Source: Naegleria gruberi (lineage: Eukaryota). From it: 64,000 nt of DNA. Location of the stretch: NCBI GenBank assembly GCA_000004985.1, contig GG738889.1. The stretch is one strand, 5' to 3'. Below the pieces are notes generated by a model. It was not told the DNA's origin, searched no databases, and worked only from the letters and a program-made list of their open reading frames with translations. Of the stretch, positions 4,856-51,725 are shown in pieces (within the stretch, counting starts at the first letter, position 1; each line of letters opens with the position of its first letter). The position numbers and the translations under genes were made by a program.

Positions 4856-6480
4856 ATGTCTTCAATAGAATTTGATTCATTGACAAGTGGAAAGTCAGTA
4901 TTAGAAAGAGCCAAATATATTCCAATTCGTTTGACATTTGAGGAGAGAAAGAAATTGAGATTGTTGGAAGCTACTTTGACTGTTAGTGAATATACTGATA
5001 AAATTGATACTATTAGAACATTTGGAAAGTTGAAGAGAATTAAAGAACAATGTGAGGAAATTTGTGCAATTTTGTGTGGTTTGATGGTTGCTGCTGATTA
5101 TCAAAAAGGTCAAGAATTGATCGCCAATAAGAACTTTCAAGATAATGAAGAATTTTTCCAAGATGTGTAAGTGTTCAATATTTGTAATGTGACAAGTCAA
5201 CTTTGTGAATAGATTTGAAATTGGAAGACGTTACAAGATTATGAATCCTGAAAAGATGAGAGGAACCTATGGTAAACTCTGTTATATTATTCAAGACAGT
5301 CAACAACCTGAAGTTCAAGAAATGTTAGGATTTAAACTTGATAGACCTGTCAAGACTGTTCATTGGTTCTTGGAACAACATGATGCTCTTGAAATTCTTG
5401 AGGATAAAGATATTGACACTGCCACAAATGAAATTTTTGCAAATGGAAAGACAAGAATGCAAGTTGAAGAAGAAATTAAAATGAAGGAAAAGGCAGCCAA
5501 GAGAATTTGTAAAGTTTACTCTGAGTCATGTGAAATGGAAGAAGAAGATATTGAAAAATGTCTTTACTCAATTGGTGATAGTAGTGCATATCTTAGACAA
5601 GCCGTATATCCAGTTGAAACCATCCTCTCCTTCTTGCTGAATAATTTCAAGCGTGATGATTATGAAGATGGTCACTCATTGGCTATTATGGCAGGCCATG
5701 AAGGTGCTCGTTTATCTCACAATCATGCCATTCAATTTGATTTCGTCTATCAAACTCTTACATTGTGGAAAAATGTTGGAAGAGATATGTTTGAATTGTG
5801 GTTCTTAGCTGAAAGAGATTTGTTCTCATCTACACATACCTATTCCTTAAGAAATACTGGTCAAGGTCTCAACAGAGTTCAATACTGTCCAAATGTTAGA
5901 AGAGCAATGGAAAAGTTGTTATCTCAAACACAGAATAGCACCTCTTCTTGGGTAGGAAGTTCAGTTATTCACTTGGGTGATGATGCTGTTCCTAACAGTT
6001 TAATGTTTATTGACAAGTATACTCAAATTTCAAGAATTTTGAATGTATGTATTTTCACTTATTATTTACAAACTTTTGAATTAGCCAATCATTCAAACAA
6101 TTACAGAAATTGATAACTATATGATTAAGGATCAAAACTTGAAAGAATATATCAATACTACATTTGGAGGTCCAGAGGAAGCAAAGATGACAATTTTGAT
6201 CGATCTTTTTAGACATGGATTTGACGGGTAAGTTATGTGGTTTTCATAATTACTAATTTGTTTCATTATTAAGATCGGGTGCTGATAACTTTTTCATGGC
6301 TGGCTCTTGTATAGATGGTAGATTGACAAGTGCTTGGAATTTCTGTTCAAAGGTTAGTATCTTTCTAATTTCTCGTATTCTTATTCAAAATTATCTTAGA
6401 TCAATAAGAAGAATTATTTCCCTCTCTTCCTTTTGGGAGGCTTCATTGGTTTCGATGGTGGTTCAGGTTTTGACAGATAA
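4856..6480 (+). CDS. Conserved eukaryotic protein of unknown function with five exons.
   Basis: Exons 4856..5166, 5213..6044, 6085..6227, 6274..6352 and 6400..6480. The introns are 46, 40, 46 and 47 bp, all GT..AG (gtaagt/gtatgt/gttagt donors). Splicing joins three separate ORF-track ORFs in frame; the 5205 ORF 'M' is a GTG, not a start. No recognisable catalytic motif. Confidence 0.6.
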
Positions 6481-6580
6481 ATCATTTCATAACACCTTTG
6501 AATCAATTTTTTGTAACTTATATTAAATTACTTATTACTTGAATTATTTATGGATTAAGAAGTGTTATTTTACAACACGT

Positions 6581-9133
6581 TTATTGGAAAAAATCTCCAT
6601 TATCCTCGAACATGTCTTCTTGGTTTACGTTATAATTATTGTCGATAGGGGTTTGAGAAATCTCTGTACTTTCTTCTCGAATTACGCTAAACATCCATAC
6701 ATAACCAAAAACAGTGCCATTATTCTCTGTAACTTTCTGTCCATAACAATTCATTTTCAGTCTCGAGTCATAAATTTGAGAAGAATTCATAGAATGTTCA
6801 TCAGGTGACATTTGCGCCTCCAACTTGTCAGGGAAATCCATAAGCACTGAATTTGACAAAATCTCCATAATGGTTCCTTTCATTTCTGGAATATCATACA
6901 CTCTTCTACCAAAGAAATTCTTTCTATGATTGTTAAACAATGCATCAAATCTTTCATTATTCCATAAAATATATCCTTGCTTATCGTAAAAACATGTTGG
7001 TTGTTTCGAACCAAAGAGTCTCTCCAGAATCTTAAGGAACATGTCTTGGAAAGTTTGCGGACTATCATTAATAAGGGATTCTCTTGAAATGTGACTCATG
7101 TCATAATCTGAAACTGTATGATTAAGCTGAGAAGGTAGTACAATGTCAGTGTGATTCTCTTCAATATTGGTTGATTTCATATTTGGATTGGATAATCTGA
7201 TTACAATCCATTGAGGAAGTCCCATTTCATTTCTTATGCAACAAAACTCTGTCGAAAGAGGTGCACATTTTCCATTTCTATTAACAAATTTGATACTATG
7301 TTTGCATGAATCCGAGTTTGTACTTAGCATTTGTAACAGGAGAATATCATGTTTTATGATATCTTGTGGATGTAAATAATTTTGTAAATTTGATCTAAAC
7401 TCGATATCATTGACAGAATCAAATCCAAGCATATCTTTCATAGCCTCGTTGACTTTAACAACAAAACCATCTAATAAAGTCACCATACTTGGTATTGTAT
7501 GATTTGTAATAGAGGTGTCATCACTTAAAATATCAATAATAGATCCAATAATAGATGTCTTTTTTCTATTATTAATAATTTGTAATCTAGAACTAGATTG
7601 ACTGATTGGTACCTTTTGTACTTTTTTACCTTTTGATTTATCACCATAGTAACAACCTTTTGGTTTTTGTTGAAGAGTAGGTAAAGGATATGGAGTAGAA
7701 AATTCAGAGTGTTGAATAGTATTAGTAAACTGAGGAATATCTTGCCATGTTTCCATTTCGTCAGTACCAAGAAAATTATCTGTTGAAGGTGTTAATTTTG
7801 GCATTAATAAACTAGTAATATCAGTAGGAATATTGTTAATAAAATTAGTTGACATTGGAATAGGTATTGAAGATAGAGAAGGATTAGATGTTGACATTGG
7901 TAAAGGAAGAGAGGATGGTTGTGTGGTAGGAGGTAAAATTGGATGATTTTCTTTTGATGTGTTGATATTGTTTGTACTTGCTGGTTCGGAAATATCTTCA
8001 CTAGATGATGCTTTTGAAGATCTTCCTGATGCAGCTTCTTGGAGTTTCTTTGTTGTTTTTCGTTGTTTTGTCTTTAACTCTGTGCCACCTATAGAGTTTG
8101 AAGATGATGTTTTCTTTTGTAATGAAGATGGAGGTGGTGGAGGATACGATGTTGGTGGGGTTGCTGTTGATGTTTTTGATGAAGAGTTAGGAATAGATGA
8201 GGCACTGCTGCTATTAGTTTGCTTTACATCCTTTGTAGTGGTAGTATTATTGGCATTATTACTATTCCCAGTTGCTATTATAGAGGATGATGAGCTTGAG
8301 GCAGGTATACTACTAGTTGTTACTTGTTGTGTTGATGAAGAAGCAGCAACTGTACTTGAAGTTGTCATAGCAGAGGCATTAGCAGTTGCAGCTTGGGCAG
8401 CTTGTGCGCTCCTTCTCTTCTTTTTCTTATCTTGCTCCAGCTTCAAGTGAAATATAAACTCTTCTTGTGGTCCTCTCTTTTTTCCACATCTCATCTTTCT
8501 CTTCTTCTTCTCCACCAAGTTATACTTTTGAGCTAAAATGTCTGAAGGAACATTCGACATATCATCTTCTTGTTGGATAACAGTCGGACTGCTAGGTCTT
8601 GGGGGTGGAGATGGTGATCTTGTTGGAGAAGAGGATCTGTTACTTGATCGATTAGAAGTATTAGCAGCTGCTGTTGCTATCGATGATGATGTTGGATGAG
8701 AATTATTAGAAGAAGAAGGTGGAGGAGGAGTAAGAAGCATATTCGAGACATGAGGTTGTTGCATACCTCCAGAAAACATTTGTAACATTTTCATCATCAT
8801 CATTGGATCAACTGGAGGAGCACCATTATTTTGATTTGTTGTGGTACTGCTTCCTTGATTATTATTACTTCCATTATTATTCATTTGCATATATTGTTGT
8901 AACATTTGCATCATTAACATGGGATCTTCACCCGTACCTAGAGGATTGGGTATCATAGAATTGTTATTATTATTATTATTGTTTGTGCTGCTCATCTCCT
9001 CTAAAATATGATAATTTGAGGATGGTTGTTGGGTTGATACGGAGGGTTGTGTATTGATTATGGAGGAGGAAGGAGATGTTAAACTAGAGGTGGATTTGTT
9101 CTTTGTTTTGGAGTTTGATGATGATAACTTCAT
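6581..9133 (-). CDS. PAS-domain-containing protein with a long N-terminal S/T/N/Q/P-rich low-complexity region.
   Basis: 850-aa intronless ORF. The C-terminal half contains two PAS-like folds, e.g. 'TLLDGFVVKVNEAMKDMLGFDSVNDIEFRSNLQNYLHPQDI...IKFVNRNGKCAPLSTEFCCIRNEMGLPQWIVIRL'. The N-terminal half has poly-N, poly-S/T/P runs and a basic cluster 'KKKRKMRCGKKRG'. Confidence 0.6.
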   Translation of the reverse strand: MKLSSSNSKTKNKSTSSLTSPSSSIINTQPSVSTQQPSSNYHILEEMSSTNNNNNNNNSMIPNPLGTGEDPMLMMQMLQQYMQMNNNGSNNNQGSSTTTNQNNGAPPVDPMMMMKMLQMFSGGMQQPHVSNMLLTPPPPSSSNNSHPTSSSIATAAANTSNRSSNRSSSPTRSPSPPPRPSSPTVIQQEDDMSNVPSDILAQKYNLVEKKKRKMRCGKKRGPQEEFIFHLKLEQDKKKKRRSAQAAQAATANASAMTTSSTVAASSSTQQVTTSSIPASSSSSSIIATGNSNNANNTTTTKDVKQTNSSSASSIPNSSSKTSTATPPTSYPPPPPSSLQKKTSSSNSIGGTELKTKQRKTTKKLQEAASGRSSKASSSEDISEPASTNNINTSKENHPILPPTTQPSSLPLPMSTSNPSLSSIPIPMSTNFINNIPTDITSLLMPKLTPSTDNFLGTDEMETWQDIPQFTNTIQHSEFSTPYPLPTLQQKPKGCYYGDKSKGKKVQKVPISQSSSRLQIINNRKKTSIIGSIIDILSDDTSITNHTIPSMVTLLDGFVVKVNEAMKDMLGFDSVNDIEFRSNLQNYLHPQDIIKHDILLLQMLSTNSDSCKHSIKFVNRNGKCAPLSTEFCCIRNEMGLPQWIVIRLSNPNMKSTNIEENHTDIVLPSQLNHTVSDYDMSHISRESLINDSPQTFQDMFLKILERLFGSKQPTCFYDKQGYILWNNERFDALFNNHRKNFFGRRVYDIPEMKGTIMEILSNSVLMDFPDKLEAQMSPDEHSMNSSQIYDSRLKMNCYGQKVTENNGTVFGYVWMFSVIREESTEISQTPIDNNYNVNQEDMFEDNGDFFQ

Positions 9134-24554: not shown

Positions 24555-25756
24555 TTATGCATCACCAAGAATAGGTGTGTTTGCAAATTTATATCTGGTT
24601 CCTGTATGACGTTTCTTAATACTAATATATGAATCCAGGTTATCCTTGAAGGTTAGTATGATTTGGTTCATTAAGAAATTACAGAATGGAGATTGTACAG
24701 GTTTAGTTGAATGGGATTTACCTTTATGCTCCGCAATAGATCGAAAGTATGTTTGTTTGTCAGCATTTTCAATGATAGTGATTGGATATTTACCCCTCAA
24801 CAAGACATAGTTCATTAATAATCTAGATATTCTTCCATTCCCATCTTTGAATGGATGAATTTGAACAAAATTGTAATGGATAAGGCAAGCTTGTTTGATT
24901 GGATGGGAATTCATGAATGATGCAGAATTAACATATTGAATAAACTTCCTCATGAGACCTGGAACTTCATTAAAATCAGCTAACAACACCTTTTCAAAGC
25001 CAATTGCAACATTGACTTTTCGGTACGCTCCATTTTCTCTTAATAAATACATCATTAGAGTGATGCATTTGTTGAATGTTTTCCTCACTTAATGTTTCAT
25101 TTTGTTCAATATATTTAAGGATATAATCAAATGCAGTTTTGTGATTCATTACTTCCAAAAATTGTATATATGAAGTTTCTTTGGCAGCAACCTCAGAAAG
25201 TATTTGACTTGTTTGAGAAAATGAAGCAGTGCAACCTTCAATGGCATTTCCATGGTAAATAAATCTTGCCAGAGTGTCATTGGCAAGGATTTCTTTCATA
25301 TCAAAGTTAAAGCTCTGGGACAAATCTTCAACAACAGCTAAATCATTTTCATCTTAAACCAATAAGAAATAAGAAAAAGTAAAGCCTACCCAATTCAATT
25401 TCTGAAGGATGTTGAAACAAACTGGCATAACCTTGATATATTGCACCATCCTCAACCAATTCATAAAAATTGGAAGTACTTCTAAACGGTTCGTACAGCT
25501 TTTTCATCTCTTCTTCTCTCCAAGTCTCTGCCTCATAAAATAGTTTAAATTGGTTCCTTTGTTTCAGTAGCTTGTCGGAATCAACATATTCCTGAGTACT
25601 TTCGTAAGTATAAAACACAACAATGCTTAATAAAAGTATCACGACCACTCCACAAATATACAACACAATATTATCTTTTCGAATTGTTTTCTTGGTTTTT
25701 GGTACCGAAGTTTTCTTGTAGTTTGTTTTCCTTACTATATTTCCCTTGCTTATCAT
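24555..25756 (-). CDS. Fic-domain AMPylase, FICD/HYPE-like (N-terminal TM anchor plus Fic core). It is disrupted by a +1 frameshift in an A4/T4 homopolymer (plus-strand T run 25033..25036). It is either a pseudogene or a sequence error.
   Basis: Fic motif 'HPFKDGNGRISRLLMNYVLL'. The upstream frame carries 'YHGNAIEGCT' (inhibitory-helix-like xxxE[GN]) and 'AYRKVNVAI'. Exon 1 is 25390..25756 (TM 'LYICGVVVILLLSIVVFYTY'). The candidate intron 25353..25389 (gtaggc..ag) is only 37 bp and uncertain. Dropping one A from the minus-strand run AAAA gives a continuous '..MHHSNDVFIKRNGAYRKVNVAIGF..'. Confidence 0.6.
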
Positions 25757-25982: not shown

Positions 25983-27080
25983 CTAGTTCTTCAGTGGTGT
26001 TTCAGATATTGGTCTGTAAGGATTCGATGTGGAGACAGTAGTTTCTGGTACATAATTCTGAATAAAAATGGCCATATCCAACCATAATTCCAAACATTGA
26101 ACAGCATGTAAGTTATCAAATTCCTTCATGTAGAGAAAATATTTGGGCACTATTAATGTTTGATTATTGATGACTTGCTCTTCAAATTTAGCCTCCAAAA
26201 CGAACAGAAAGGCAACTTTTTGTAGGTATAACAACCCCTCCACTTTGCTGTACTTTTCCATTTGTTCCTTTTTTAAACGAAAGTGTTTCATGTTTTCTCT
26301 GAAAAAGTTATTTAAATCCAAGTGAATAACATCTTACCTTAGTAAACTCTTCATACAAATAATCAATTTCTGGCCGTCTGTTCCTGGATTGTTCCACTTC
26401 ACTGGATGGTCGATTGCCTTATCTTCCCTTATCAAAAATCTACTTTCTTCAGTTTGCAAAAACCCATCATTTCGTACTTTAATTAGAGGCAACTCATCAC
26501 ATAAACAAACTGAATGTTGTTTGTCCCTGATCATATTCTCCTATTAGCATTTCTATTAATAAGAAACTTACCCATTCAAACTGATATTGTTAAAATTTGA
26601 ACATAGTGCATTAAATAGACTATTAATGGCTGAAGACACTACCATGTCTCCCAAAGGTTCTCTTCTTTTATAAATATCGAACAACTTTCGTGTCGAACAT
26701 AACAACTCCATAACTGTCCCAATACTGGCTCTGCACCCTTCAAAAGAGGATTCGAGCTCTAGCTTTAAACTTTCAAACTTTTCCCAGCTATCTTTCTCTT
26801 GGTAAATGTCGGTAATCCTTTCCAAACTTTCCTTTGGGAATGAAAAATCAGGTTTCCAACTCATAGGTGTAATGTCGAGTGTTGAGAAGAAAGGTGCACT
26901 TTCTTTTGCCCAATAGGGAAGATCCTGATTTTCGGAAATGATTGCTCTTTCACAAAATCTCACAAAAGCCTCAAGTTTTCCTTCATCTTCCACAATTCCC
27001 TTAATTACTTGTTGTAGACTTTGCTTTAGTCCCTCCTTGCTGTCTTCTTCTGCTCTTTCGATGAGTTTTCTCTTTGGCAT
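25983..27080 (-). CDS. Hypothetical three-exon protein (unknown function).
   Basis: Exons 26572..27080, 26338..26526 and 25983..26298. Intron 1 is 45 bp (26527..26571, gtaagt..ag) and intron 2 is 39 bp (26299..26337, gtaaga..ttttcag). Splicing joins three ORF-track ORFs in frame. No motif recognised. Confidence 0.55.
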
Positions 27081-27265: not shown

Positions 27266-29896
27266 CTAAAAGCCAAATGGTTTCATGTAAGAAATGATAA
27301 GATTAATATTATCTAAGAAATTAGCTGATAATTCATCGATCAACTGTTTGAATGGTCCAAATAAGTTCTTATTACGCAGATATTCAGCTAACTCATTGTA
27401 AATCATTCTCTCCATCAATATTATTAAACCTAATACTCTTTGGAAAGATTTAGGATAATAGTGGCTTCTTTCTAAATGTCCCTCATTATCCACATAAATT
27501 TTGGAAGGAGATGAACTCTCGAAAACATGTCCAATAAAAGCATCAAATGCTGCTGTCTGCAAGAGAATATCTTTGAATGATTGAGATTTTGATGTTGTAA
27601 AGTCAGAGAGCTTAGAATTTTTACCCCCAACTCTTTGTGAGTGAATTGGAGAAACAAGACTAAACCCTTTTCCAAAAGCAGTGGGGAAATTTCTAACCCT
27701 ACGATTTGTGTAAGGAACATTAATCCAAAATCTGTTCACATCAATAAAACTGTTGATAATCAAGTTAAATAATTGATCTAATGGTGAATATTCCAATTCC
27801 AATACTTCCCCACTCTTGAACTGCAGTATTACATTGGATATGGAAAACTTTTGAACAGAAGGAATAACTGTCATTACCTCATCATGCATGCTGTAAAATG
27901 GTATGAATAGTGGTTTGGAAAATTCACCGTTCATACCTCCCGTAGTTAATTTCTCAATTGAGTCCAAAAAGAGACATTGATTTTGAATGATTTCCTTTTC
28001 CTCAGTATTAATCATTGACATGTATTGGGAAAGTATAAATTTGCTGATTGGATGTCGATGTGATTCCACTTTCAGCAACCAGAAAAATTGATTTCCAATA
28101 ACTTTGGATGTAAGAGATCTTCTTACAAGATATTGAGTCAGTACTCCATTAACACTATCAAACTTGATACAATTTGTGAGATAAGGTAGCAATACCAAAA
28201 AATCTTCATCAGTGGTATCTTGCAGCATTTCTGTAATTGTAAGTTTGATAAAAACACTGTTGGAAACACTTTCTGATAGAATTCTCAATAGTTTCATCAC
28301 GTGTTGTGGTTTTTTCCATTTAGATACATATTGTTTGGCCAAATATACAGCCCATGGATTTTGAAATGGTATACTTCTCAAAAATGGTACAATCTTGTCT
28401 GGATTACTAATGTTAACATCCTTTTGTTTCCATTCCTTCATAGAAGGTAAATCATTCAATGTTAAGTTCATTGGTTCAACTCTATTAAAAAGAACAATTT
28501 GTGTTTCCTCATAAACTTCCAAAGATTCTTTAAACTTCAGTGGTGGTATTTTCTCTATTTCATACATGACCGAATGCTCATAATTCTCGAATGAAACGTC
28601 AACAGAAAATGTTGTATCAATACCGTCTATTGTGGTATCTTTGGAAAATAATTTAACATTTCCTTGTTGTAGCTCCAAATTTGAATCGAAAACTGGGCAT
28701 TCTACTTTTGACACGTATTTTCTTTTAGTTATTCCAGTAATAGGGTTTACCATTAAGCAGAATAGTGTTAATTCTATCATTCCATCACAAGAAAGGTCTG
28801 ATATACGAATGTTATCAAAACTAATTTCCTCATTCCATTCCAAACAATCCGAATGTGGTATACACTTGGTATATTTTCTCTCACTGGTCTCGTTGCTATA
28901 TATTTTGCATTCAATTACAAAAGAAAGAGTACTGAAAGGTTTGAAGTCTGTGTGAAAGTATGATATTCCCTGTATACCCTTGATGAAAATTTTCAGATTC
29001 TTATCAAAATCGAAAGAGCAAATGGCACCGTCCTTCTTTGCAATGTCAGTAGTTTGAGTGATTAAAGAATTTAAAAACTTGAAATATGGTTCAACATCAT
29101 TTTCGTGTTCAATATTCATCTTGGTTGGTGCACAATCAACCTCTATATTTTTCTTCGATCCTAAAGAAAGTAAAAGTCCTCTTTCAACATTCTTCATCAA
29201 GTTGATTTTGACAATTAAAGTTTTAAGGGAAGGTAAACCTTCTAAAATTGGTATGATACCCTCAGTCAAAGGGTTGGCAGAAATATTAAGCCTTGTTAAG
29301 TTTTTCCATTCACATTCACTCATAAGCTCTGTAAAATTCCTCGTATCCATATTAATTGAAGAAATATCCAGAGAGGTCAACCCTTCCAGTTTACAAATTT
29401 TGGATATTAATCCTTTTCCAAATGAATGGCCATTTACAGTTAAACATGTCAGGTGGAGTGGCTTGATTTCATTTGAACTGTAGATATTTTCCCAAAAACG
29501 TTTGCTCATATTATTTAAAGTAAGTGATTTTAGATTTTTGAATTCACACTTTTCAAAATTCTCAAATCCATTAGTTTGCACATCATCAAGAGCCAAATAC
29601 TCCAAGTTTTCTGAAAAGTTTTCAATATTAGTATAGCAGTGTGTTATGGAGAGTTTTTTCAATCCCAAAGGAAGAATGGATGTTTCTATTGTGATATTTC
29701 CTTCTAAATCTAATGATTCGAGATTTTCAAAATCCAACCTGGGAAGAGGTGATATTCTTTCAAAACGATCACTGTATATAGCCAGTGATCTAATTTGTGG
29801 TTTGATAGAAAGCATCTTATCTACCAAATATGAAGTATATGCAAAATCAACTTTCAACTCGACAAGATTAGGTAGTCTTTCCCTGCTCTCTAACAA
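27266..29896 (-). CDS. LRR protein fused to a PI3K-like module: N-terminal leucine-rich repeats, a central region, a PI3K accessory/helical domain and a degenerate kinase-like C-terminal region. It may be the same gene as the F-box ORF 29890..30300.
   Basis: LRRs 'LDFENLESLDLEGN..LKKLSITHC..LEYLALDD'. Helical-domain signature 'LTSKVIGNQFFWLLKVESH' (compare PI3K 'IGHFFFWHLKSE'). Canonical catalytic motifs (GDDLRQD, DRH, DFG) were not found. The ORF 'M' is a TTG and the frame is open upstream. Confidence 0.5.
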   Translation of the reverse strand: MLESRERLPNLVELKVDFAYTSYLVDKMLSIKPQIRSLAIYSDRFERISPLPRLDFENLESLDLEGNITIETSILPLGLKKLSITHCYTNIENFSENLEYLALDDVQTNGFENFEKCEFKNLKSLTLNNMSKRFWENIYSSNEIKPLHLTCLTVNGHSFGKGLISKICKLEGLTSLDISSINMDTRNFTELMSECEWKNLTRLNISANPLTEGIIPILEGLPSLKTLIVKINLMKNVERGLLLSLGSKKNIEVDCAPTKMNIEHENDVEPYFKFLNSLITQTTDIAKKDGAICSFDFDKNLKIFIKGIQGISYFHTDFKPFSTLSFVIECKIYSNETSERKYTKCIPHSDCLEWNEEISFDNIRISDLSCDGMIELTLFCLMVNPITGITKRKYVSKVECPVFDSNLELQQGNVKLFSKDTTIDGIDTTFSVDVSFENYEHSVMYEIEKIPPLKFKESLEVYEETQIVLFNRVEPMNLTLNDLPSMKEWKQKDVNISNPDKIVPFLRSIPFQNPWAVYLAKQYVSKWKKPQHVMKLLRILSESVSNSVFIKLTITEMLQDTTDEDFLVLLPYLTNCIKFDSVNGVLTQYLVRRSLTSKVIGNQFFWLLKVESHRHPISKFILSQYMSMINTEEKEIIQNQCLFLDSIEKLTTGGMNGEFSKPLFIPFYSMHDEVMTVIPSVQKFSISNVILQFKSGEVLELEYSPLDQLFNLIINSFIDVNRFWINVPYTNRRVRNFPTAFGKGFSLVSPIHSQRVGGKNSKLSDFTTSKSQSFKDILLQTAAFDAFIGHVFESSSPSKIYVDNEGHLERSHYYPKSFQRVLGLIILMERMIYNELAEYLRNKNLFGPFKQLIDELSANFLDNINLIISYMKPFGF

Positions 29897-40893: not shown

Positions 40894-40966
40894 CTCCCCC
40901 TGGTGGGCTCGAACCACCGACCTGCAGATTAACAGTCTGACGCTCTACCGACTGAGCTAAGGGGGA
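40894..40966 (-). tRNA. tRNA-Asn (anticodon GUU).
   Basis: Minus-strand sequence TCCCCCTTAGCTCAGTCGGTAGAGCGTCAGACTGTTAATCTGCAGGTCGGTGGTTCGAGCCCACCAGGGGGAG folds into a cloverleaf. It has a 7-bp acceptor, a GCTC/GAGC D-stem, anticodon loop CUGUUAA, T-arm GGTGG-TTCGAGC-CCACC and discriminator G. A T-run lies shortly downstream. Confidence 0.85.
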
Positions 40967-41672: not shown

Positions 41673-41966
41673 ATCTACTCTATCCTAAAATAAAAAAAAA
41701 TATAAATATATAATTTATTCTTTTATTTGCTGATGAAGATGAATTATTTGATATAGTAAGCTTAGGAAGATTTGCATATTTCCTCTGACTTCAATAGAAC
41801 TTTGCAAGATCGTTATTGTTACCCTTGCCTTTTCCTACAAAATTCAAGCAAAAACTCAACGAAAGGTTTGCAGTCATAACAAAGCAATGTTGATTTCGAC
41901 TCGATTTTCTGGTTTATAATCATAATAGGTTTGTTATAATACCAATATTAAAATTCATCCACGTAA

Positions 41967-42055
41967 GGCGGCTTAGCACAGTGGTAGTGCATCAGTCTTG
42001 TAGGCAGAAATGCTGAGATAACTGAGGGTCGAGGGTTCAATTCCCTCAGTCGCCT
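41967..42055 (+). tRNA. Intron-containing tRNA, most likely tRNA-Thr (anticodon UGU), with a 17-nt intron after position 37.
   Basis: Acceptor GGCGGCT/AGTCGCC (one G-U pair), D-arm GCAC-AGTGGTA-GTGC, anticodon stem TCAGT..ACTGA enclosing CTTGTA[GGCAGAAATGCTGAGAT]A, and T-arm GAGGG-TTCAATT-CCCTC. A T5 Pol III terminator follows at 42055..42059. Confidence 0.7.
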
Positions 42056-42059
42056 TTTT
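42055..42059 (+). terminator. RNA polymerase III oligo-T terminator for the intron-containing tRNA.
   Basis: TTTTT immediately 3' of the acceptor stem/discriminator. Confidence 0.6.
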
Positions 42060-42515: not shown

Positions 42516-43976
42516 TTAAATTTCCATTTCATCGGCCATAATATCTTGGTCAGTATAGGTTTCGTCATCCTTCTTGACTGTAAAGTTTGGAGCGACTCTA
42601 CATCTCTCCATTTTAGTTCCAGCCTCAATAACAGATCCAGAGCTAATCACACAATCCTTCAAATGAACCTTATCTTCAATAATTACGTTACCCATAATGA
42701 CTGAATTATCAATTAAAACTCCACTTCCAAGACTACAATTCTTTCCAATATTACTCTTCTTGATGGTTGGTTTGGATACCTTCTTAGTGACAGATAATCC
42801 TTCTCCAATAACACAATCAGGTCCTAACAAAACAAGATCAGCTGGTGGTGTGACATGTGTACTTTGAACCATTTCACTATAAAAATCAATATTATTCTTT
42901 CTTGCAAGCTAAAATTATTGTGAAATAATTACAATAAATTATTCAAAATAACTTACCTCTCTATTGACATGTAAATAAGAAGAAACATCGTTACATCTCT
43001 TACAAAAAACTCCTTGTCTTGTTGGGGTCTTTGCGGCTGTGGTGGTGGTAGTTGGTTTATCTTCGTGTGGAGGAACAACATGGGCAAAAACTCGAATCAC
43101 ATCACTGAGTTCAGATTCAGATGTACTCATTCTATAAGCTTCTGATAATGGGAATGGCGTAACAACAGTGGAGAGGACAGGATCTAACTTATCGGAAGAA
43201 ACTTTTTGTGAGTCAATCAAGAATGGAACCAAATCAGACTTGATAGAGTGAATATCAGGTTTTTGAACCAATAAATCAATGACCCACTTTGAAAAGATGT
43301 ATAAATGTGAATCTTTGAGGAATTTGGAAATTGAAAAGTTTGACCATCTCTTCAAGAATGAGCGTGGAATTGATAAATGTTCTTCGGAACCATCATCTGC
43401 ATCATCCGAGTCAATAATTCTATTCATAATTACACGTGATGGCTTCTTTGATAATAAATCTCTTCTCTTCTTTGTTGGTTCACCAACAATTTCTCTCTTA
43501 TAATTTGTCAATGCAAAATAATCGGATTTATCCTCTTTAGAATTAATATTTGATTCATCCTTCAAAAGGAGAGTAAGTGATGAATTATGTTGTCTATGAA
43601 TATCATAAACATTAACCAAAGGAACATCAGTAAATGTATCAACACTCATCACAACAAAATTTGTATAAATAGAATCATGAATTTGTCGTAAAGCTTCAGC
43701 ACTTTCGCAATCCTTGTTGTCCAAAGTTTTAATATCAATTTTTAATTTCCCTGGATATTCCTCGATGGCTTGTTCAATAATCTTTTGTTGTCCAGCTTTA
43801 ACAACAACAATAACATCCTTCAATCCATTCCTCTCCAAATAAGACAATGAATAGTGAATCATTGGATGATTAGCAATCGGCAGTGTTGCCTTTGGTGAGT
43901 GGTCTGAAGCGAGAGGATACAGTCTCAATCCATCTCCTCCAGCCAACAATACGGCTTGCAATTCGGTTTGCATCAT
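42516..43976 (-). CDS. EIF2B3: Translation initiation factor eIF2B subunit gamma. Two exons.
   Basis: Exons 42948..43976 and 42516..42899 with a 48-bp intron 42900..42947 (gtaagt..ttttag). N-terminal nucleotidyltransferase fold 'LQAVLLAGGDGLRLYPLASDHSPKATLPIANHPMIHYSLSYLERNGLKDVIVVV'. C-terminal left-handed beta-helix hexapeptides ending '..MEI' as in EIF2B3. Confidence 0.85.
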
Positions 43977-45597: not shown

Positions 45598-48500
45598 TTG
45601 GGAATTCACAAAGATTCAAAAATTCTAAAATTGGAACAATCAGAAATGCAAAGTCAAATAAAAAAAATGTCACAACAACCCACTCAACCACCTCCCAATG
45701 ATAATGATATCAATATTCTGAGATATCCAACAATAACCCCTACTAATAATAAGAAACCACACAAAGGTGGTTTTATTAAAATTCCAATCACTCCAAACTC
45801 AACCAATGACACAATCGATCCACAGAATATTAACCAGAAGACCAACACTTCTTTATCCACCACTACTATAGATGCTAATGTGAAGCCTGTAGTATTGAAT
45901 AATACATCTCCTACTGATGGAAAAAGAAACAAGCCAAAGAAGAAGAATGATGCGTCATCAAATGCATTGAATGTTGGTGGTCAATCAAGTGCTGCATCTT
46001 CATCATTGGATGTTGTTGTACCTCCATCACCATCATCCGAAGCATCTGCATCATCATCATCTACATTCAGTAAGAAAGGTAGAGAATTTAAACCCTCCGA
46101 ACATGCAAACAAGAGATTTTCACAAGTACTTTTAATGTGTGGAAAATGTAATTCATGTCTTGCTGCCAATACTTTGGAAGCCTCTCACATGTTTAGTGTT
46201 TTCAAAGATGATCGTACGAGACATGCTGTTCTGAAGGATCAAAATGTGATTGGGAATACCTTGATTGAGAAGGAAACCAATTTCAAGTTTGAAAAGAAAA
46301 ACGAAAAGTACCGAAAGACTCACATGTTATATTGTAAAGCATGTAATCAAAAAGTGGGTTCTAGATTTCCAGGCAATTATCCAGATACTGAATTGCCTAA
46401 AAGAATGTTCGATGGTAGTGATTGTAAGGTTTCATGTAAGGAGTTGAATAATGATGATGGACAAGATGTTGTAATGAATGTTGAAGAGTGGAGAACTTTG
46501 AGTAGTTCATTGAGAGATTATGGATTATATCCTCCACGTCATGTATCTTCTCAAGATTCATCGAGAAATAATTCCAGAGATGGTTCTTTCAAGAAGGATT
46601 TCAATGGAAAGAAACCAGTAGAAAGTGGGACGAATGAAAACAAATTTCAAAAGAAGGAATTTAACAAGAAGAGTTTTGAAAAGAAGAATCATCAACCAAA
46701 TGAACCGATTACATCAATCCCATTTATAAGCAACAATGAGGTGGATAATATCTTTGGAAGAAACAATCAAGGATCGTCATCTTCATCACCATTCATCAGA
46801 AACATTTCTCCAAAATTTGGTCAATTGTCTCAAGCAAGAGTTCAAAAAGATTTGCCTCCAAAAAAGGAAAAGAAAGATTACACAATCAAAACTGTTAAGG
46901 GTATTGGTTTTTATATTGACAATTCACTTTTCAATGAAAATCAAAAAGAATATTTCATCAAGAACTTAACACAAGAAGAATTCAAATCAATATTCAATAA
47001 GGGAGGTCTTTTAGAGGAACAAGAAGTTAATTTTTCAATTATTGAAAAGCTCATGAAGGTCTTTGCCCATGAGCAAATAGAATTATCAACTAACAAGTCA
47101 CTAATCACCCCAATCTTTTCTCATCTCATGAATAGCTTATTTTGGAGAAGAGTTGTAAAGAAATATATTGTACAGGATGTAATTGATGATGAACAAGTTA
47201 AAGACTTGATCACAGTTTTTCACAGATGCTTGGAGTTTTGTCCACAGGAAGCTGAGAGAGTTTTCATTGAAGAATTAGAAAAGGTGTACATTGACAAATT
47301 CGTCTCTCAAGATTATCAGGAATCCATTATGGCAATCAAGAAAAGGAAGCAAGCACTCAAATTGGCCAACTCAAAGATGGATAAAGGACCACTACCTGAA
47401 CAACAAGAAATCAACGAAAATGATGAAAATGAATTTGAGGAAATTAGTGTCTTTCCAACTTTCAATGAATTGACTTCGAATGAAAGATTCAAAGTTAGAA
47501 ACAATGTTGATGGCCCTTATTCTTCTTTGAGAGAATATATTAGGACTCAAATATTGTTATTGAGAGAGGATTTTATTCATCCACTCAAGGATGGCATTCA
47601 ATCTTTCCTTTCCAATAATTGTAACCATAGATCAATTTCAGTTTTCACAGATTGTCAATTCGTGTCTGTTATTTCATCAGATAATGAACGTGAATTAGTT
47701 CATTCTCTTTCATTCCATTATCCTTGGAGAAGGATCAATTGGGAATGTACCAAAAAATTAGCTTTCGGTTCCCTTCTCTGTTTATTCCCACAAGAAGGTT
47801 CTGGAAAGAATGCAACCATTGTAAAATCAGAGCCAATATTTGTAACAGTTTTGGATAGAAAATCGGTCTCAAAAGAATTAATTTATGTTGGTTTGAGTAG
47901 AGTTGAGGATTTCAAGAGACTTTCTCTCGTTGGAAAATATGTCATGTTTGAATCACCTGCTTATTTCGCTGGAGTTAGACCTGTCATTGATTCTCTCAAT
48001 ATGATTCTCAATGAAACCTTAATTGACCAATCCAAATTTACATTTTATGATGAATTCATCAAATTGAAACAACAAACTCCACCACAATATATCGAAAGAG
48101 ATAGTTTTATGAATTTAGATGTTATCAAGGGAGATCAAAGAAGATCGACTCAATCAGATTTATCTACTGGAAGAAAAACTAATATTTTGAGTAATTGGAT
48201 TGAGGATAATGAGACTTTCCTTGATCCTAGTCAAAACAAGGCCATTCAACACGTTATGAGAAATAGAGTTTCAATTGTAAGTATAAGAAATCAAACTATT
48301 GCTCTAATTTTGAAAGGTAATTGGACCTCCAGGTTGTGGAAAAACGTTTACAGGAATTGAGATTGCTAAATTATTGAAGAGTCACCCAGATATGAAAAAT
48401 AGACAATTAATATGTATTACTTATACTAATCATGCTCTTGATCAATTTTTAGAAGGTTTAATTGATTATTTCCCAGATATTGTCAGAATTGGCAGTAGAA

Positions 48501-51500
48501 GTAAGAGTCAGAATGAGAAACTATTGAATAGAAACCTTTCTAAAATGAGATATTTGCCACAATATCTATATGTAGAAAAGCAAAAGTGTGAAGCTGAATT
48601 GAGAAGGTTGTCACTCACAATTGGTGCAACAGAACTTTCTATCAAGAATCCAGACGATAGTTTACTTCGCCACTTGGCAAAATCATTTGTATTTAATAGA
48701 GCTCTCTCAAAATTCCCAATTCACCTGTATAGCAAGAGAAATCCACCTCCAGAAACCTTACAAGCCATGTTCAGAGCTTGGTTAGGAGGAGACGATCTCA
48801 GAAGAAAGGAGAGTTTACAAAAGAACATGCAAAAGGCCTATAGAACTGCTAATTTCTTTAGAGTTCTACAAGAAAATAACAATGAAACACAAGAAGAAGA
48901 CGAGGAGGAGGAGAAGCTCATTATTGAAGAGGAACCTCAGAGAGAAATCATTCCACAAGAAGAAGTTATTGTGGAAGAAGTTGAAGATGAAATCGAAGAA
49001 GAAATTGAAGCCGAATTGATTAATGAAGAAATGAGAAATATATTTGGCTATGAAGAAAATGAAATCACCAATGAAGTTGCTATTACTAAAATGTATGAAG
49101 ATTTAGAGGATGCATCAGATATTCAATCAGAAACTCGAGCAGAAATCCAAAAAATAGAGCAAATAGTCAAGCAATGTGGGGATATTTACAGAATTCCTCT
49201 CAAGAAGAGAATTTCAATGCTCAACCCATTGAGAATTTTGAATGAGAAACTACTCAAGGCACGTCTCATTGATTTATGTCATCTTAGAAGCCACTATGAG
49301 AATAGAAAATACGAAATTATTATGGATGGAGATTATGACAAATTGAAAACTGCCTCAGTTATTGGATTGACTTCTACAGCTGCTTCCATGAATAGACAAC
49401 TATTGAATAGATTAAAGTCACCTGTCTATCTCATTGAAGAAGCTGCTGAATTATTGGAATGTCAAATTACTTCTGTATTGCATCCAAATGTTGAACATTT
49501 AATTATGATTGGTGATGAGAAACAACTTCAACCTAAAGTCAACTCTTACTACTTGGAGAAGAATTGTGATTTCACTGTGAGTTTATTCGAAAGATTGATC
49601 AGAAATGGATTGGAATATTCTTCACTCAATGTCCAACAAAGAATGAGACCAGAAGTTAGAGAATTAGTCGATATGTTCTATGAGAAACTAATTGACCATG
49701 AAAGTGTTAAACAATTCGAAAATGTTAATGGAGTGAGTAAGAATGTTTGCTTTATTGAACACAAGAAATTAGAAAAGACCTCAGATGATGTTCAATCATT
49801 GACCAATCCACATGAAGCTGAGTTTTTATGCAAGTTTTCAAAGTATCTTCTCAATGTCAGACAATTCAAGGCAAGTCAAATTACAATTCTGACACCTTAT
49901 AGAGGACAAGTTATTTTGATTAAAAAGACACTCAGGGAATTGCTTAATCAAGACTTGTATAGAGAATTGAGAGTTTCTACTGTTGATGATTATCAAGGAG
50001 AAGAAAATGAGATTATTTTACTTTCGTTGGTGAGATCGAATAACTTTGAAAATCTTGGATTTGTTAAGATTACCAACAGAATTATTGTTTCATTGAGTAG
50101 AGCAAAGAAGGGTCTCTACATTATTGGCAATCACGATTTGTTAAGAAATAACGAAGATTGGAGAAAGGTCTTTGCTAGACTAAAACATTCGGATAGAATT
50201 TTGGATCATTTACCTCTCTCCTGTCCAACACACTCTGAAGAAAGAGAATGCATAAGAGAACCAAGTGATTTTGATGGTGTTATCTGGGGAGGGTGTAAGA
50301 AACCATGTACTTATCGTTATCCATGTGGACACATTTGTTCATTACCGTGCCATCATGATTCATTACATAAGGAAAGAAAATGTGAAAAGATTTGTGGTGA
50401 AAAATATGAAGATTGTGGTCATAGATGCGAGGACAAGTGTCATCATGGAAAATCCTGTCCAAAATGTAAAACTAAAGTTGACTACAAGTTTGTGGCATGT
50501 GGACATGTTACAAAAGTTGCATGCCACTTGAAAAATACTACTCAATTGTGCAAATCAACGTGTAACAAACTTCTTGGATGTGGACATAATTGTAGAGGAC
50601 AATGTGGACAATGTGGATTAACTGGTTGTGGACCATGTATTGCCACAGTCAAAGATTATTGTGAAACTTGTAAGAAACCATATGAAAGAAGATGTTCAGA
50701 GCCAAGAATCTGTACAAATCGTTGTACTGTCAAACTATCTTGTGGACATGCATGTTCTGGAAAGTGTGGTGAATGCTCAACCAGTGGAACTCATAAAGTT
50801 TGTGGATTCAAGTGTGAGAGAAAACTCATTTGTGGACATATTTGTAAAGCTAAACATACTTGTAGTAATCCGTGTCCAAAATGTGAGGAAATGTAAGTAT
50901 TTCAATTTATGCTTTGATTTTTATAATTTCCATAGTTGTAAATTCAAATGTTTCCATAATATTCAATGCAAGCTTGCTTGCCATGAAATGTGTCACAAGT
51001 GTAAGGAGCCATGTCCAATTCAATGCCCACACAGAAAATGTACAAATCTTTGTCATGAGTTGTGTAATGTGGAGCCATGCAATGAGAAGTGTCCAAACAT
51101 CTGTTCAAAATGTAATCATCAATGTATGGGACTTTGTGGAGAGCCATGTCCACCATGTATGTATTGCGATACTCTGAAGAAAGAGGAGGAAGAAATGTGG
51201 CAATGCCCAATCTCTTTTTACACATTTGAAGATTTAATTCAAAGCGACGATTCGAGGGTTTATCATTTACCTGAATGTGGACACACCATTGAACTTGAAT
51301 CAATGGATAATTGTGTGAAAACCTTCTTTGATACGGAACAAGGAGTTTCAATCAAATACTTGTCATGTCCAGTGTGTAGAACTCCAATATTTACTTCTCC
51401 AAGATATCAACACTCTATCAAGCAATCTGTTGAAAGAATGGAAAATCTCAAATATGTAATTTACAAAAAGGCAGAGGAGGAAAAAGAAAGAAAGCAAGCT

Positions 51501-51725
51501 ATTAAGGCTGTCTCTGCTGGCTATGCTTCTGGTCATTGGTTCACTTGTCCAAATGGTCATCCATATTTCATTGGTGATTGTGGAGGAGCCATGCAACAGA
51601 GTACTTGTGTTGATTGTGGAGAACAAATTGGAGGTTCTAATCATACACTATTGGCTTCTAATCGTTTAGCAACTGAGATTGATGGTTCCACAGCCCCAGC
51701 TTGGCCAACTGCTCTTAATAGATAA
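45598..51725 (+). CDS. ZNFX1: NFX1-type zinc-finger-containing helicase, ZNFX1-like (Upf1-like SF1 helicase, NF-X1 zinc fingers and a C-terminal RZ-type zinc finger). Three exons, ~2000 aa.
   Basis: Exons 45598..48276, 48317..50892 and 50936..51725, with introns of 40 bp (gtaagt..gaaag) and 43 bp (gtaagt..ccatag). Splicing restores Walker A 'VSIVIGPPGCGKTFTG'. Helicase C-terminal block 'TVDDYQGEENEIILLSLVRS'. Many CxxC/CxH NF-X1 repeats (50300..51170). RZ finger 'GHWFTCPNGHPYFIGDCGGAMQQSTCVDCGEQIGGSNH'. Confidence 0.8.

What the first reader, a model, noticed from the sequence alone, without database searches (positions are those of the whole stretch)
24555..25756. FICD/HYPE-like Fic AMPylase gene interrupted by a 1-nt homopolymer frameshift
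The reading frame carrying the N-terminal Fic helices (25323 frame: '..YHGNAIEGCT..EENIQQMHHSNDVFIKRK') and the frame carrying the catalytic core (25088 frame: 'NGAYRKVNVAIGF..HPFKDGNGRISRLL') overlap by ~95 bp and differ by +1. No GT..AG intron of plausible length reconciles them. Deleting one A from the minus-strand AAAA run (plus T4 at 25033..25036) yields a continuous, well-conserved Fic domain. Upstream, a TM-anchored exon (25390..25756) joined by a 37-bp candidate intron gives the TM + Fic topology of metazoan FICD. It is either a recently inactivated AMPylase, a programmed frameshift, or an assembly error. The inhibitory-helix motif is also non-canonical (GNAIEG instead of [S/T]xxxE[G/N]), which would matter for auto-inhibition if the gene is functional.
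Basis: partly seen in the sequence, partly recalled or inferred. Interest (0 to 1): 0.6.

Follow-up and report, generated by a model that had tools for sequence, protein, structure and literature searches.

The report
Frameshifted membrane-anchored Fic gene in Naegleria

Summary
The window is Naegleria gruberi. The 3' piece of the locus is 100% identical to predicted protein NAEGRDRAFT_71218 (165 aa).

On the minus strand there is a two-exon gene. Exon 1 (25756-25390) encodes a basic tail plus a membrane anchor. A 37-nt GT..AG intron follows (25389-25353). Exon 2 encodes a class II Fic domain with the gatekeeper Glu in GNAIEG and a canonical HPFKDGNGRISR motif. Exon 2 changes frame once.

Two independent HMMs and three relatives place the break at 25059 (cat cac T cta atg), not in the A4 run at 25036-25033. 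It is best read as a 2-nt deletion.

The intron is supported. An uncultured relative has a 34-nt intron at the same codon and phase.

The Willaertia magna orthologue is intact. The uncultured relative has its own separate deletion and frameshift about 27 nt away, seen in two independent assemblies.

The closest solved structures are human FICD. However, no TPR domain is detectable, so this is FICD-like rather than a full FICD.

The most likely reading is a real, very recent inactivating lesion. An assembly error cannot be excluded. Programmed frameshifting and a cryptic 52-nt intron are unlikely. Interest is modest.

The parts
25390..25756 (-). Exon 1. ATG at 25756-25754, K/R-rich N-terminal tail, single membrane anchor, and a helical module with conserved W79 R80 E83 Y88 ... 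L113 F114.
   Evidence: The module is conserved in L004, W. magna, the Logan protein and the Trimastix protein.
25613..25669 (-). Predicted type II signal-anchor / transmembrane segment, residues 30-48 (IVLYICGVVVILLLSIVVF).
   Evidence: Mean hydropathy 3.22, with 6 K/R before and 1 after. The AF2 model has a helix at 28-57. All four relatives have an equivalent N-terminal hydrophobic segment.
25353..25389 (-). 37-nt intron, GTAGGC...TTTAAG, phase 1. It joins ..SEIEL | D ENDLAVV..
   Evidence: L004 has a 34-nt GTAAGT..CAG intron at the same codon and phase (..MILF | D PELLARI). Control introns in the window are 40-50 nt, and one has an AAG acceptor. A 52-nt alternative acceptor at 25338 is not excluded.
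25060..25352 (-). Exon 2, first part, in frame A (residues 123-220). It holds the inhibitory helix and the N-terminal Fic helices, up to ..EENIQQMHH.
   Evidence: The tblastn segment is 25353-25060. It aligns to FICD and to the relatives.
25234..25251 (-). Inhibitory-helix motif GNAIEG. Gatekeeper Glu161 is at 25239-25237. Gly replaces the usual Ser/Thr at the first position.
   Evidence: Read from the sequence. Relatives have SSGIEG, SNALEG and SNALEG. E161 and G162 are conserved in 97% of 153 background homologues.
25055..25063 (-). Frame-breaking lesion: cat cac T cta atg. Base 25059 belongs to neither frame. Best read as a 2-nt deletion that removed one codon's worth of sequence minus one base.
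   Evidence: The score maximum lies here in both the custom HMM and Pfam. tblastn segments end at 25060 and restart at 25058. N. gruberi is one residue shorter than W. magna (HSILMTSLL) and L004 (HTLLMSTLL) exactly here.
24555..25058 (-). Exon 2, second part, in frame B (residues 221-387 plus the stop codon). It encodes the flap region, the catalytic core and the C-terminal helices.
   Evidence: Pfam Fic E=1.1e-19 on this frame alone. AF2 pLDDT is above 90 over most of it.
24822..24857 (-). Fic active-site motif HPFKDGNGRISR (catalytic His288).
   Evidence: Read from the sequence. Every motif residue matches columns that are 98-100% conserved.
24555..25052 (-). Extent of the public gene model NAEGRDRAFT_71218 / XP_002673687.1 / D2VQG5 (165 aa, starting MYLLRENG). 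This is only the 3' fragment.
   Evidence: P0151 is 100% identical over residues 223-387.
25033..25036 (-). It is not the best-supported site.
   Evidence: About 10 bits (custom HMM) and 7 bits (Pfam) worse than the 25059 site.
25037..25088 (-). Cryptic 52-nt GTGAGG..AAGAG candidate intron. It restores frame but deletes 17 residues, including the family-invariant His219.
   Evidence: It scores 148.5 bits (custom HMM) and 71.8 bits (Pfam), and the Pfam match is then truncated to profile positions 20-93.

Best explanation
The locus is the Naegleria gruberi orthologue of a heterolobosean gene for a type II membrane-anchored class II Fic enzyme. The enzyme is FICD-like but lacks TPR repeats.

Intact gene (inferred): two exons joined by a 37-nt intron encode about 388 residues. 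These comprise a cytosolic K/R tail, one membrane anchor, a short conserved helical module, an inhibitory helix with a gatekeeper Glu, and a Fic core with HPFKDGNGRISR. By analogy with FICD, such an enzyme would sit in the ER or secretory lumen. It would transfer AMP from ATP to a target hydroxyl using His288, with Glu161 restraining AMPylation and enabling deAMPylation. This function is inferred, not shown.

Gene as sequenced: exon 2 has lost two bases (or gained one) at 25059, in the helix just before the G-x-Y-R/flap region. Translation from the ATG therefore ends 22 codons later at 24994, before the catalytic core.

Everything else is intact. There are no other stops, and 30 of 33 strongly conserved positions are kept. 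The lesion is therefore very recent. The most likely reading is a young pseudogene, or a null allele of the sequenced lab strain, in a gene that is being lost repeatedly in this clade.
For: Organism and locus identity:
- The 3' ORF is 100% identical to N. gruberi NAEGRDRAFT_71218.
- A neighbouring DUF2009 gene is 80% identical to its N. fowleri counterpart.

Fic identity:
- Pfam Fic scores 80.6 bits over profile positions 2-93 after repair.
- PDB best hits are human FICD at 1.5e-23 and C. elegans FIC-1.
- The AF2 Fic core has pLDDT above 90, and the top Foldseek hits are FICD structures such as 4u04 and 6i7g.

Lesion position:
- Scores peak at 25063-25055 in two independent HMMs.
- Frame-B LMMYLL matches the relatives, while frame A has 0 of 9 identities.

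Intron:
- The position and phase are conserved in L004.
- Verified window introns are 40-50 nt.

Real decay rather than design:
- The W. magna orthologue is intact and continuous through both sites.
- The uncultured relative L004 has a different lesion: the conserved Gly and Arg of the G-x-[YF]-R motif (columns G230 and R233) are missing and the shift is -1/+2. It is identical in two independent assemblies.
- No N. fowleri orthologue appeared in an exhaustive HMMER search.

Recency: 30 of 33 background-conserved residues are retained, compared with 27 of 33 in the intact W. magna protein.

Sequence context: the lesion is not in a homopolymer. An independent near-identical strain contig shows no indels against this assembly over 2.6 kb.
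Against: - No reads, traces or transcripts could be examined, so a consensus error in the assembly is not excluded.
- The complete absence of any second defect is equally what an error would produce.
- The absence of an N. fowleri orthologue is weak evidence. The library is clustered at 50% identity, and the word-indexed searches were visibly lossy: they missed the W. magna and L004 proteins.
- Whether the change is a 2-nt deletion or a 1-nt insertion rests on a short alignment with relatives that are only 33-37% identical.
- The ER localisation and the AMPylation function are inferred from homology only.
Confidence: 0.6

Rival explanations
1. Sequencing or assembly error. The real N. gruberi gene is intact and encodes a functional, roughly 388-aa membrane-anchored Fic enzyme. 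The public 165-aa model and this frameshift are artefacts.
For: There is only one defect. All catalytic and regulatory residues are intact, and 30 of 33 conserved positions are retained. Both halves stay open in a 32% GC genome, where random ORFs average roughly a dozen codons (my estimate from the composition).
Against: The break is at cat cac T cta atg, not in a homopolymer or other simple repeat. The assembly shows 0 indels against an independent 99.73%-identical contig over 2629 nt. A related organism carries a verified lesion in the same gene, so decay of this gene is plausible in the clade.
Confidence: 0.25
2. The frame is restored by splicing of a second small intron, the 52-nt GTGAGG..AAGAG at 25088-25037. 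This would give a 370-aa protein lacking 17 residues.
For: It is a canonical GT..AG. Its length (52 nt) is close to the verified introns of this window (40-50 nt). It is 3n+1 and leaves an open frame.
Against: It deletes LSEENIQQMHH.., which aligns to the first Fic-core helix of FICD and of all relatives, including the family-invariant His219. It scores 148.5 versus 171.0 bits (custom HMM) and 71.8 versus 80.6 bits (Pfam), with loss of profile positions 2-19. W. magna and L004 have no intron at that place. All 67 enumerated intron candidates at this junction remove conserved residues.
Confidence: 0.06
3. Programmed +1 ribosomal frameshifting (or another recoding event) yields the full-length enzyme from the sequence as it stands.
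For: Both frames are intact and overlap by 95 nt. An AAA codon followed by U lies in the overlap (aga aaa tgg). A second lineage is also interrupted within about 27 nt.
Against: Conserved residues are encoded in frame B upstream of the A-run, so a shift there would not reproduce the ancestral protein. At the true break, cac/tct cannot re-pair in the +1 frame, and no stop codon follows. The L004 break is at a different codon, in the opposite direction (-1/+2), and is missing the conserved Gly and Arg of the G-x-[YF]-R motif, so there is no shared signal. W. magna needs no shift.
Confidence: 0.03
4. The break is tolerated or selected because it splits the enzyme into two products. One is a membrane-anchored fragment carrying the inhibitory helix. 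The other is a 165-166-aa catalytic fragment started at the ATG ATG (25055/25052) just after the lesion. This would resemble class I Fic toxin/antitoxin pairs.
For: Two in-frame ATGs lie immediately after the break, and the public model uses one of them. Both disrupted lineages are cut between the inhibitory helix and the catalytic core.
Against: Eukaryotic ribosomes would rarely initiate about 0.7 kb into an mRNA. The fragment would lack three to four core helices, including His219, and would have no signal or anchor. L004 has no ATG near its break and has lost the conserved Gly and Arg of the G-x-[YF]-R motif.
Confidence: 0.03

Closest known systems
Metazoan FICD / HYPE (human FICD, C. elegans FIC-1, Drosophila Fic)
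   Same: These are the best sequence and structure matches among solved proteins (E=1.5e-23; Foldseek E about 1e-14, TM 0.56-0.67). Both have an N-terminal single-pass anchor followed by the Fic domain. Both are class II, with the inhibitory helix N-terminal to the core and a gatekeeper Glu. Both have a canonical HPFxDGNGRxxR motif.
   Different: There are no TPR motifs by Pfam. hhalign against an arthropod FICD aligns only the Fic part, query columns 155-372 to FICD 227-437. In FICD, TPR1 is the element that grips BiP (PMC8373988). The space between the anchor and the inhibitory helix is about 100 residues, much shorter than in the 445-aa arthropod FICD compared here (P0154). It holds a different conserved module (W-R-x-x-E ... 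Y-x-x-L-F). The first residue of the inhibitory motif is Gly. The gene is frameshifted.
Protist and fungal membrane-anchored, TPR-less Fic proteins: Willaertia magna KAL9653107.1, Trimastix marina EP00771_P002649, uncultured L004, Logan P0156. More distant relatives are found in Arcella and in chytrids.
   Same: They share the same architecture and the same conserved pre-Fic module. They are 26-37% identical over the whole length. L004 shares the intron position and phase.
   Different: W. magna and Trimastix are uninterrupted. N. gruberi has the 25059 lesion. L004 has a different deletion and frameshift. P0156 has Gln in place of the catalytic His.
Bacterial class II Fic proteins (for example Bacteroides BT_2513 3cuc, Clostridioides difficile CdFic 4x2c)
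   Same: They share the Fic fold, an N-terminal inhibitory helix and the same motif. Sequence identity is 25-35%.
   Different: They are soluble, have no membrane anchor and no introns, and score lower than FICD.

Membership tests
Fic/Fido superfamily (Pfam PF02661) | Profile match above the curated cut-off. | tested here: met
   71.5 bits for frame B alone and 80.6 bits for the repaired protein. The cut-off is 24.
Fic/Fido superfamily (Pfam PF02661) | Active-site motif HxFx(D/E)GNGRxxR. | tested here: met
   HPFKDGNGRISR at 24857-24822. All positions match columns that are 98-100% conserved.
Fic/Fido superfamily (Pfam PF02661) | All-helical Fic fold. | tested here: met
   The AF2 core has pLDDT above 90. 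The top 50 Foldseek PDB hits are all Fic proteins.
Class II Fic (intramolecular N-terminal inhibitory helix) | Motif [S/T]xxxE[G/N] N-terminal to the core in the same chain. | tested here: inconclusive
   The motif reads GNAIEG. Glu161 and Gly162 are present and correctly placed, but the first position is Gly instead of Ser/Thr. Relatives have Ser there.
FICD/HYPE | N-terminal type II membrane anchor. | tested here: met
   Hydrophobic segment at residues 30-48 (Kyte-Doolittle 3.2) with K/R enrichment on the N-terminal side. It is conserved in relatives. The topology itself is inferred.
FICD/HYPE | Two TPR motifs between the anchor and the Fic domain. | tested here: not met
   Pfam finds no TPR family at E<=0.01. 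hhalign against an arthropod FICD aligns only query columns 155-372. The AF2 confidence for residues 55-110 is low.
FICD/HYPE | Closest relatives among characterised proteins are FICD orthologues. | tested here: met
   Human FICD is the top hit by sequence and by fold. An Artemia FICD is among the top 4 of 1.84 billion representatives.
FICD/HYPE | AMPylates and deAMPylates the ER chaperone BiP. | not testable with these tools
   This needs biochemistry. The missing TPR argues for caution.
Programmed ribosomal frameshift site | A slippery sequence at the point where the conserved protein changes frame, conserved in relatives. | tested here: not met
   The break at cac T cta has no re-pairing potential. 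Relatives are either unshifted (W. magna) or shifted elsewhere in the other direction (L004).
Unitary pseudogene | A frame-disrupting lesion relative to an intact orthologue. | tested here: met
   W. magna is continuous through the site. N. gruberi has one base that belongs to neither frame.
Unitary pseudogene | Signs of relaxed constraint, such as further lesions or loss of conserved residues. | tested here: not met
   There is no second stop or shift, and 30 of 33 conserved positions are kept. If the gene is a pseudogene, it is very young.
Unitary pseudogene | The lesion is present in the organism and not only in the assembly. | not testable with these tools
   No reads or independent copy of this locus were found.

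The most novel reading that the evidence does not exclude
Two heterolobosean lineages (N. gruberi and the L004 organism) carry different frame breaks within about 27 nt of each other, in the same helix. Each break lies between the inhibitory helix and the catalytic core, while everything else stays intact. The most novel reading not excluded is that this is not coincidental decay. Instead it could be a selected or regulated state: a recoding or bypass event, or a deliberate uncoupling of the catalytic core from its gatekeeper, that keeps a potentially toxic AMPylase silent until needed.
Probability: 0.04. Interest if true: 0.7.

Novelty: new member of a known kind. Interest (0 to 1): 0.25.

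Why it matters
- It corrects a public gene model. NAEGRDRAFT_71218 (165 aa, listed as a predicted protein) is the tail of a roughly 388-aa membrane-anchored Fic gene.
- It shows that FICD-like, membrane-anchored class II Fic enzymes without TPR repeats exist in Heterolobosea and Preaxostyla. This bears on when ER-type AMPylation arose, and on how such enzymes choose targets without the TPR that FICD uses to hold BiP.
- It gives an example of the gene being lost piecemeal: intact in Willaertia, freshly broken in N. gruberi, and broken differently in an uncultured relative.
- None of this is surprising to a specialist. Fic genes are known to be sporadic in eukaryotes (PMC4454073).

Tried and rejected
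- Exact-protein look-ups for the three ORF pieces and for alternative starts found nothing. No independent copy of the N. gruberi locus was obtained.
- The search for related loci with the single protein found nothing in metagenome contigs or in viral contigs. A giant-virus source was therefore not supported.
- The same search with the family alignment returned only distant loci, at most 37% identical.
- The word-indexed protein searches missed the true relatives. These came only from the exhaustive HMMER search.
- The codon-usage frame plot was consistent with three frames but too noisy to place the break.
- Ciliate-type explanations were considered early and dropped once the organism was identified and the control introns (40-50 nt, GTAAGT) were seen. 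These included 15-16-nt introns, Euplotes AAA-TAA shifting and alternative genetic codes.
- I enumerated all GT/GC..AG and AT..AC introns at both junctions. None at junction 2 keeps both conserved flanks.
- A comparison of synonymous and non-synonymous differences between the two L004-type contigs was not possible, because they are 100% identical.
- Literature searches for Naegleria plus Fic found no paper.

Full report
**What the window is**

The window is 32% GC and about 79% ORF. It carries eukaryotic genes, including PI3K-type, GH38 mannosidase, insulinase, ZNFX1-like, F-box and ankyrin genes.

A DUF2009 ORF is 80% identical to the Naegleria fowleri protein. It is 100% identical to a protein on an ENA metagenome contig, and that contig is 99.73% identical to the window with no indels over 2629 nt.

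The 3' ORF of the finding is 100% identical to N. gruberi predicted protein NAEGRDRAFT_71218 / XP_002673687.1 / D2VQG5, which is 165 aa. The window is therefore N. gruberi. The public model for this locus is only the fragment 25052-24555.

**The observation**

Three ORFs lie in three frames on the minus strand:
- 25756-25349
- 25323-24994 (frame A)
- 25088-24555 (frame B)

Each step between them is +1. Frames A and B overlap by 95 nt.

Frame B alone matches Pfam Fic at E=1.1e-19 and contains HPFKDGNGRISR. Frame A contains YHGNAIEG, the inhibitory-helix region. The first ORF has a very hydrophobic 19-residue stretch preceded by six K/R.

The description is accurate. With E-values of 1e-19 to 1e-23 spanning both frames, it is not a chance pattern.

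**Junction 1 is an intron**

A 37-nt GT..AG at 25389-25353 joins the frames in phase 1. Its donor (GTAGGC) and acceptor (AAG) are weaker than the window's control introns. I defined those controls from domain or orthologue continuity:
- 50 nt in the aldo-keto reductase gene
- 46 nt in the DUF2009 gene
- 47 nt in a longin/synaptobrevin gene
- 40 nt and 43 nt in the ZNFX1-like gene

The control donors are GTAAGT or GTATGT, and one control acceptor is AAG.

The decisive support comes from an uncultured relative, L004 (JGI sample 3300002220, 37% GC). It has a 34-nt GTAAGT..CAG intron at the same codon and phase. The flanking peptides are similar..MILF|DPELLARI versus ..EIEL|DENDLAVV.

A 52-nt variant using the acceptor at 25338 remains possible. 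The Willaertia orthologue has no intron there.

I removed each base in the overlap in turn. I then scored the products with an HMM built from 30 remote homologues and, separately, with Pfam Fic.

| Repair | Custom HMM (bits) | Pfam Fic (bits) |
|---|---|---|
| One base removed at 25060-25058, within the 25063-25055 maximum (..IQQMHH LMMYLLRENGAYRKV..) | 171.0 | 80.6, profile 2-93 |
| One A removed from the A4 run 25036-25033 | 161.0 | 73.6 |
| 52-nt GT..AG 25088-25037 spliced out | 148.5 | 71.8, profile 20-93 |

The closer relatives found by the exhaustive search settle the matter. W. magna reads FHSILMTSLLQNAGKFREHNVGIG and L004 reads LHTLLMSTLLPE... N. gruberi frame B reads LMMYLLRENGAYRKVNVAIG, whereas frame A (SNDVFIKRK) has 0 of 9 identities.

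tblastn places the last frame-A residue at 25060 and the first frame-B residue at 25058. Base 25059, the T in cat cac T cta atg, therefore belongs to neither frame. N. gruberi is one residue shorter than both relatives at exactly this point. This favours a 2-nt deletion over a 1-nt insertion.

The context is not a homopolymer.

All 67 enumerated GT/GC..AG or AT..AC candidates at this junction delete conserved residues.

**What the gene encodes**

The repaired product (387 aa) has the following parts:
- a K/R-rich tail
- a membrane anchor at residues 30-48
- a helical module conserved only in the protist relatives (W79, R80, E83, Y88, I106, Y110, L113, F114 are invariant)
- the inhibitory helix (GNAIEG, Glu161)
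- a complete Fic core

Human FICD gives the best PDB sequence hits (1.5e-23), followed by C. elegans FIC-1 and then bacterial class II Fic proteins.

The AF2 model has pLDDT above 90 through most of residues 120-370, including the repaired helix. Its best Foldseek matches are FICD structures.

Pfam finds no TPR. An hhalign comparison with an arthropod FICD aligns only the Fic part. In FICD, the TPR1 motif contacts BiP (PMC8373988). So this protein works like a FICD-type enzyme in architecture and active site but fails one defining feature of the FICD family. Its target cannot be inferred.

Ser/Thr is replaced by Gly, while the gatekeeper Glu and the following Gly are kept. Relatives have Ser at that position.

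**Relatives and what they say about the break**

The exhaustive HMMER search returned the following:
- the intact W. magna protein (381 aa, E=1e-40)
- a fragment from L004 (52% identical)
- an intact but probably inactive protein from a Logan assembly (IQPFSSGNGR)
- a Trimastix marina protein
- at similar scores, an Artemia FICD
- below that, bacterial and archaeal Fic proteins and hits from Arcella and chytrids

No N. fowleri protein appeared. This is weak evidence, given the clustering and the lossy indexed searches.

L004 has the same three-piece layout as N. gruberi, but its break is different. Frame A runs through ..LHTLLMSTLLPE. Frame B resumes at RHNVAVGTEKVLLAD directly after a TGA. 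The conserved Gly and Arg of the G-x-[YF]-R motif (columns G230 and R233) are missing, and the shift is -1/+2.

A second assembly, from a different project, is 100% identical to L004 over 1095 nt, including this site. The L004 lesion is therefore real.

Two different lesions in two lineages, together with an intact outgroup, fit independent decay of a dispensable gene. They argue against any shared recoding signal. Their closeness (about 27 nt apart) is notable, but I estimate it could arise by chance at roughly the 5-10% level.

**How old is the break, and is it real?**

N. gruberi keeps 30 of the 33 positions that are at least 80% conserved across 153 background homologues. That is better than the intact W. 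magna protein, which keeps 27 of 33. Neither half has acquired a stop.

The lesion is therefore either very recent or an artefact. I could not obtain reads or an independent copy of the locus.

Three points favour a real lesion: the non-repetitive context, the absence of indels against an independent near-identical contig elsewhere in the window, and the demonstrated decay in a relative.

The cleanliness of everything else favours an error.

My estimates are:

| Explanation | Probability |
|---|---|
| Real lesion (young pseudogene or null allele of the sequenced strain) | about 0.6 |
| Assembly error | about 0.25 |
| Cryptic 52-nt splicing | about 0.06 |
| Programmed frameshifting | about 0.03 |
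| Split-product scenario | about 0.03 |

**Verdict**

The finding is real and well described. Three corrections are needed:
- The break is at 25059, not in the A-run.
- A frame-restoring GT..AG does exist, though it is implausible.
- The protein is FICD-like but has no TPR repeats.

It is a new, broken member of a known enzyme class in an organism where a fragment was already annotated. Its value is as an annotation correction and as a small data point on the spread and loss of ER-type Fic enzymes in protists. It is not a major surprise.

Noticed in passing
L004 1295-1320 (JGI 3300002220) and L085 (ENA ERZ27315067): The uncultured relative's Fic gene carries its own deletion and frameshift. 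The conserved Gly and Arg of the G-x-[YF]-R motif are lost, and a TGA lies just upstream of the resumed frame. This is only about 27 nt downstream of the position homologous to the N. gruberi break. Two assemblies from different projects are 100% identical over 1095 nt. One possible origin is deletion between two AGGC repeats, but that is conjecture.
   Followed up: partly
L003 528-1595 (Logan SRR23962323), protein P0156: An intronless relative with the same anchor plus Fic layout has IQPFSSGNGR. The catalytic His is replaced by Gln and the Asp by Ser, and it departs from 12 of 33 conserved positions. It is probably a catalytically dead Fic.
   Followed up: no
L002 4139-4178 (Willaertia magna JBEGDK010000057.1): The public W. 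magna model places a 40-nt intron two codons before the stop, so the last exon encodes only 'YI'. L004 ends ..NWGYI and Trimastix ends ..RWGYQ, so a short conserved C-terminal tail may exist. N. gruberi ends differently (..PILGDA).
   Followed up: no
window 43208-43285: ARAGORN calls a tRNA-Val inside the NTP-transferase ORF 42939-43976. Rfam does not confirm it at its gathering score, so it is probably a false positive. The tRNA-Asn (40894-40966) and a 91-nt tRNA-Thr (41966-42056), whose length suggests an intron, are confirmed.
   Followed up: partly
window 27266-29896 (minus strand): This 876-aa ORF has PI3K C2 and PIK accessory domains plus an LRR-like hit. No kinase catalytic domain was reported at E<=1e-3, and the next ORF downstream (26568-27080) has no Pfam hit.
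   Followed up: no
window 45598-51725 (plus strand): A large ZNFX1-like helicase gene with an RZ-type zinc finger is split by very small introns: 40 nt at 48277-48316 (AAG acceptor) and 43 nt at 50893-50935. These are useful as controls for minimum intron size in this genome.
   Followed up: partly
window 4861-7489 versus L001 (ENA ERZ929261, run ERR1078381): An environmental metagenome contig is 99.73% identical to the window (7 mismatches, no indels). A near-identical N. gruberi strain is therefore present in that sample. Its reads could be used to check the Fic lesion.
   Followed up: partly
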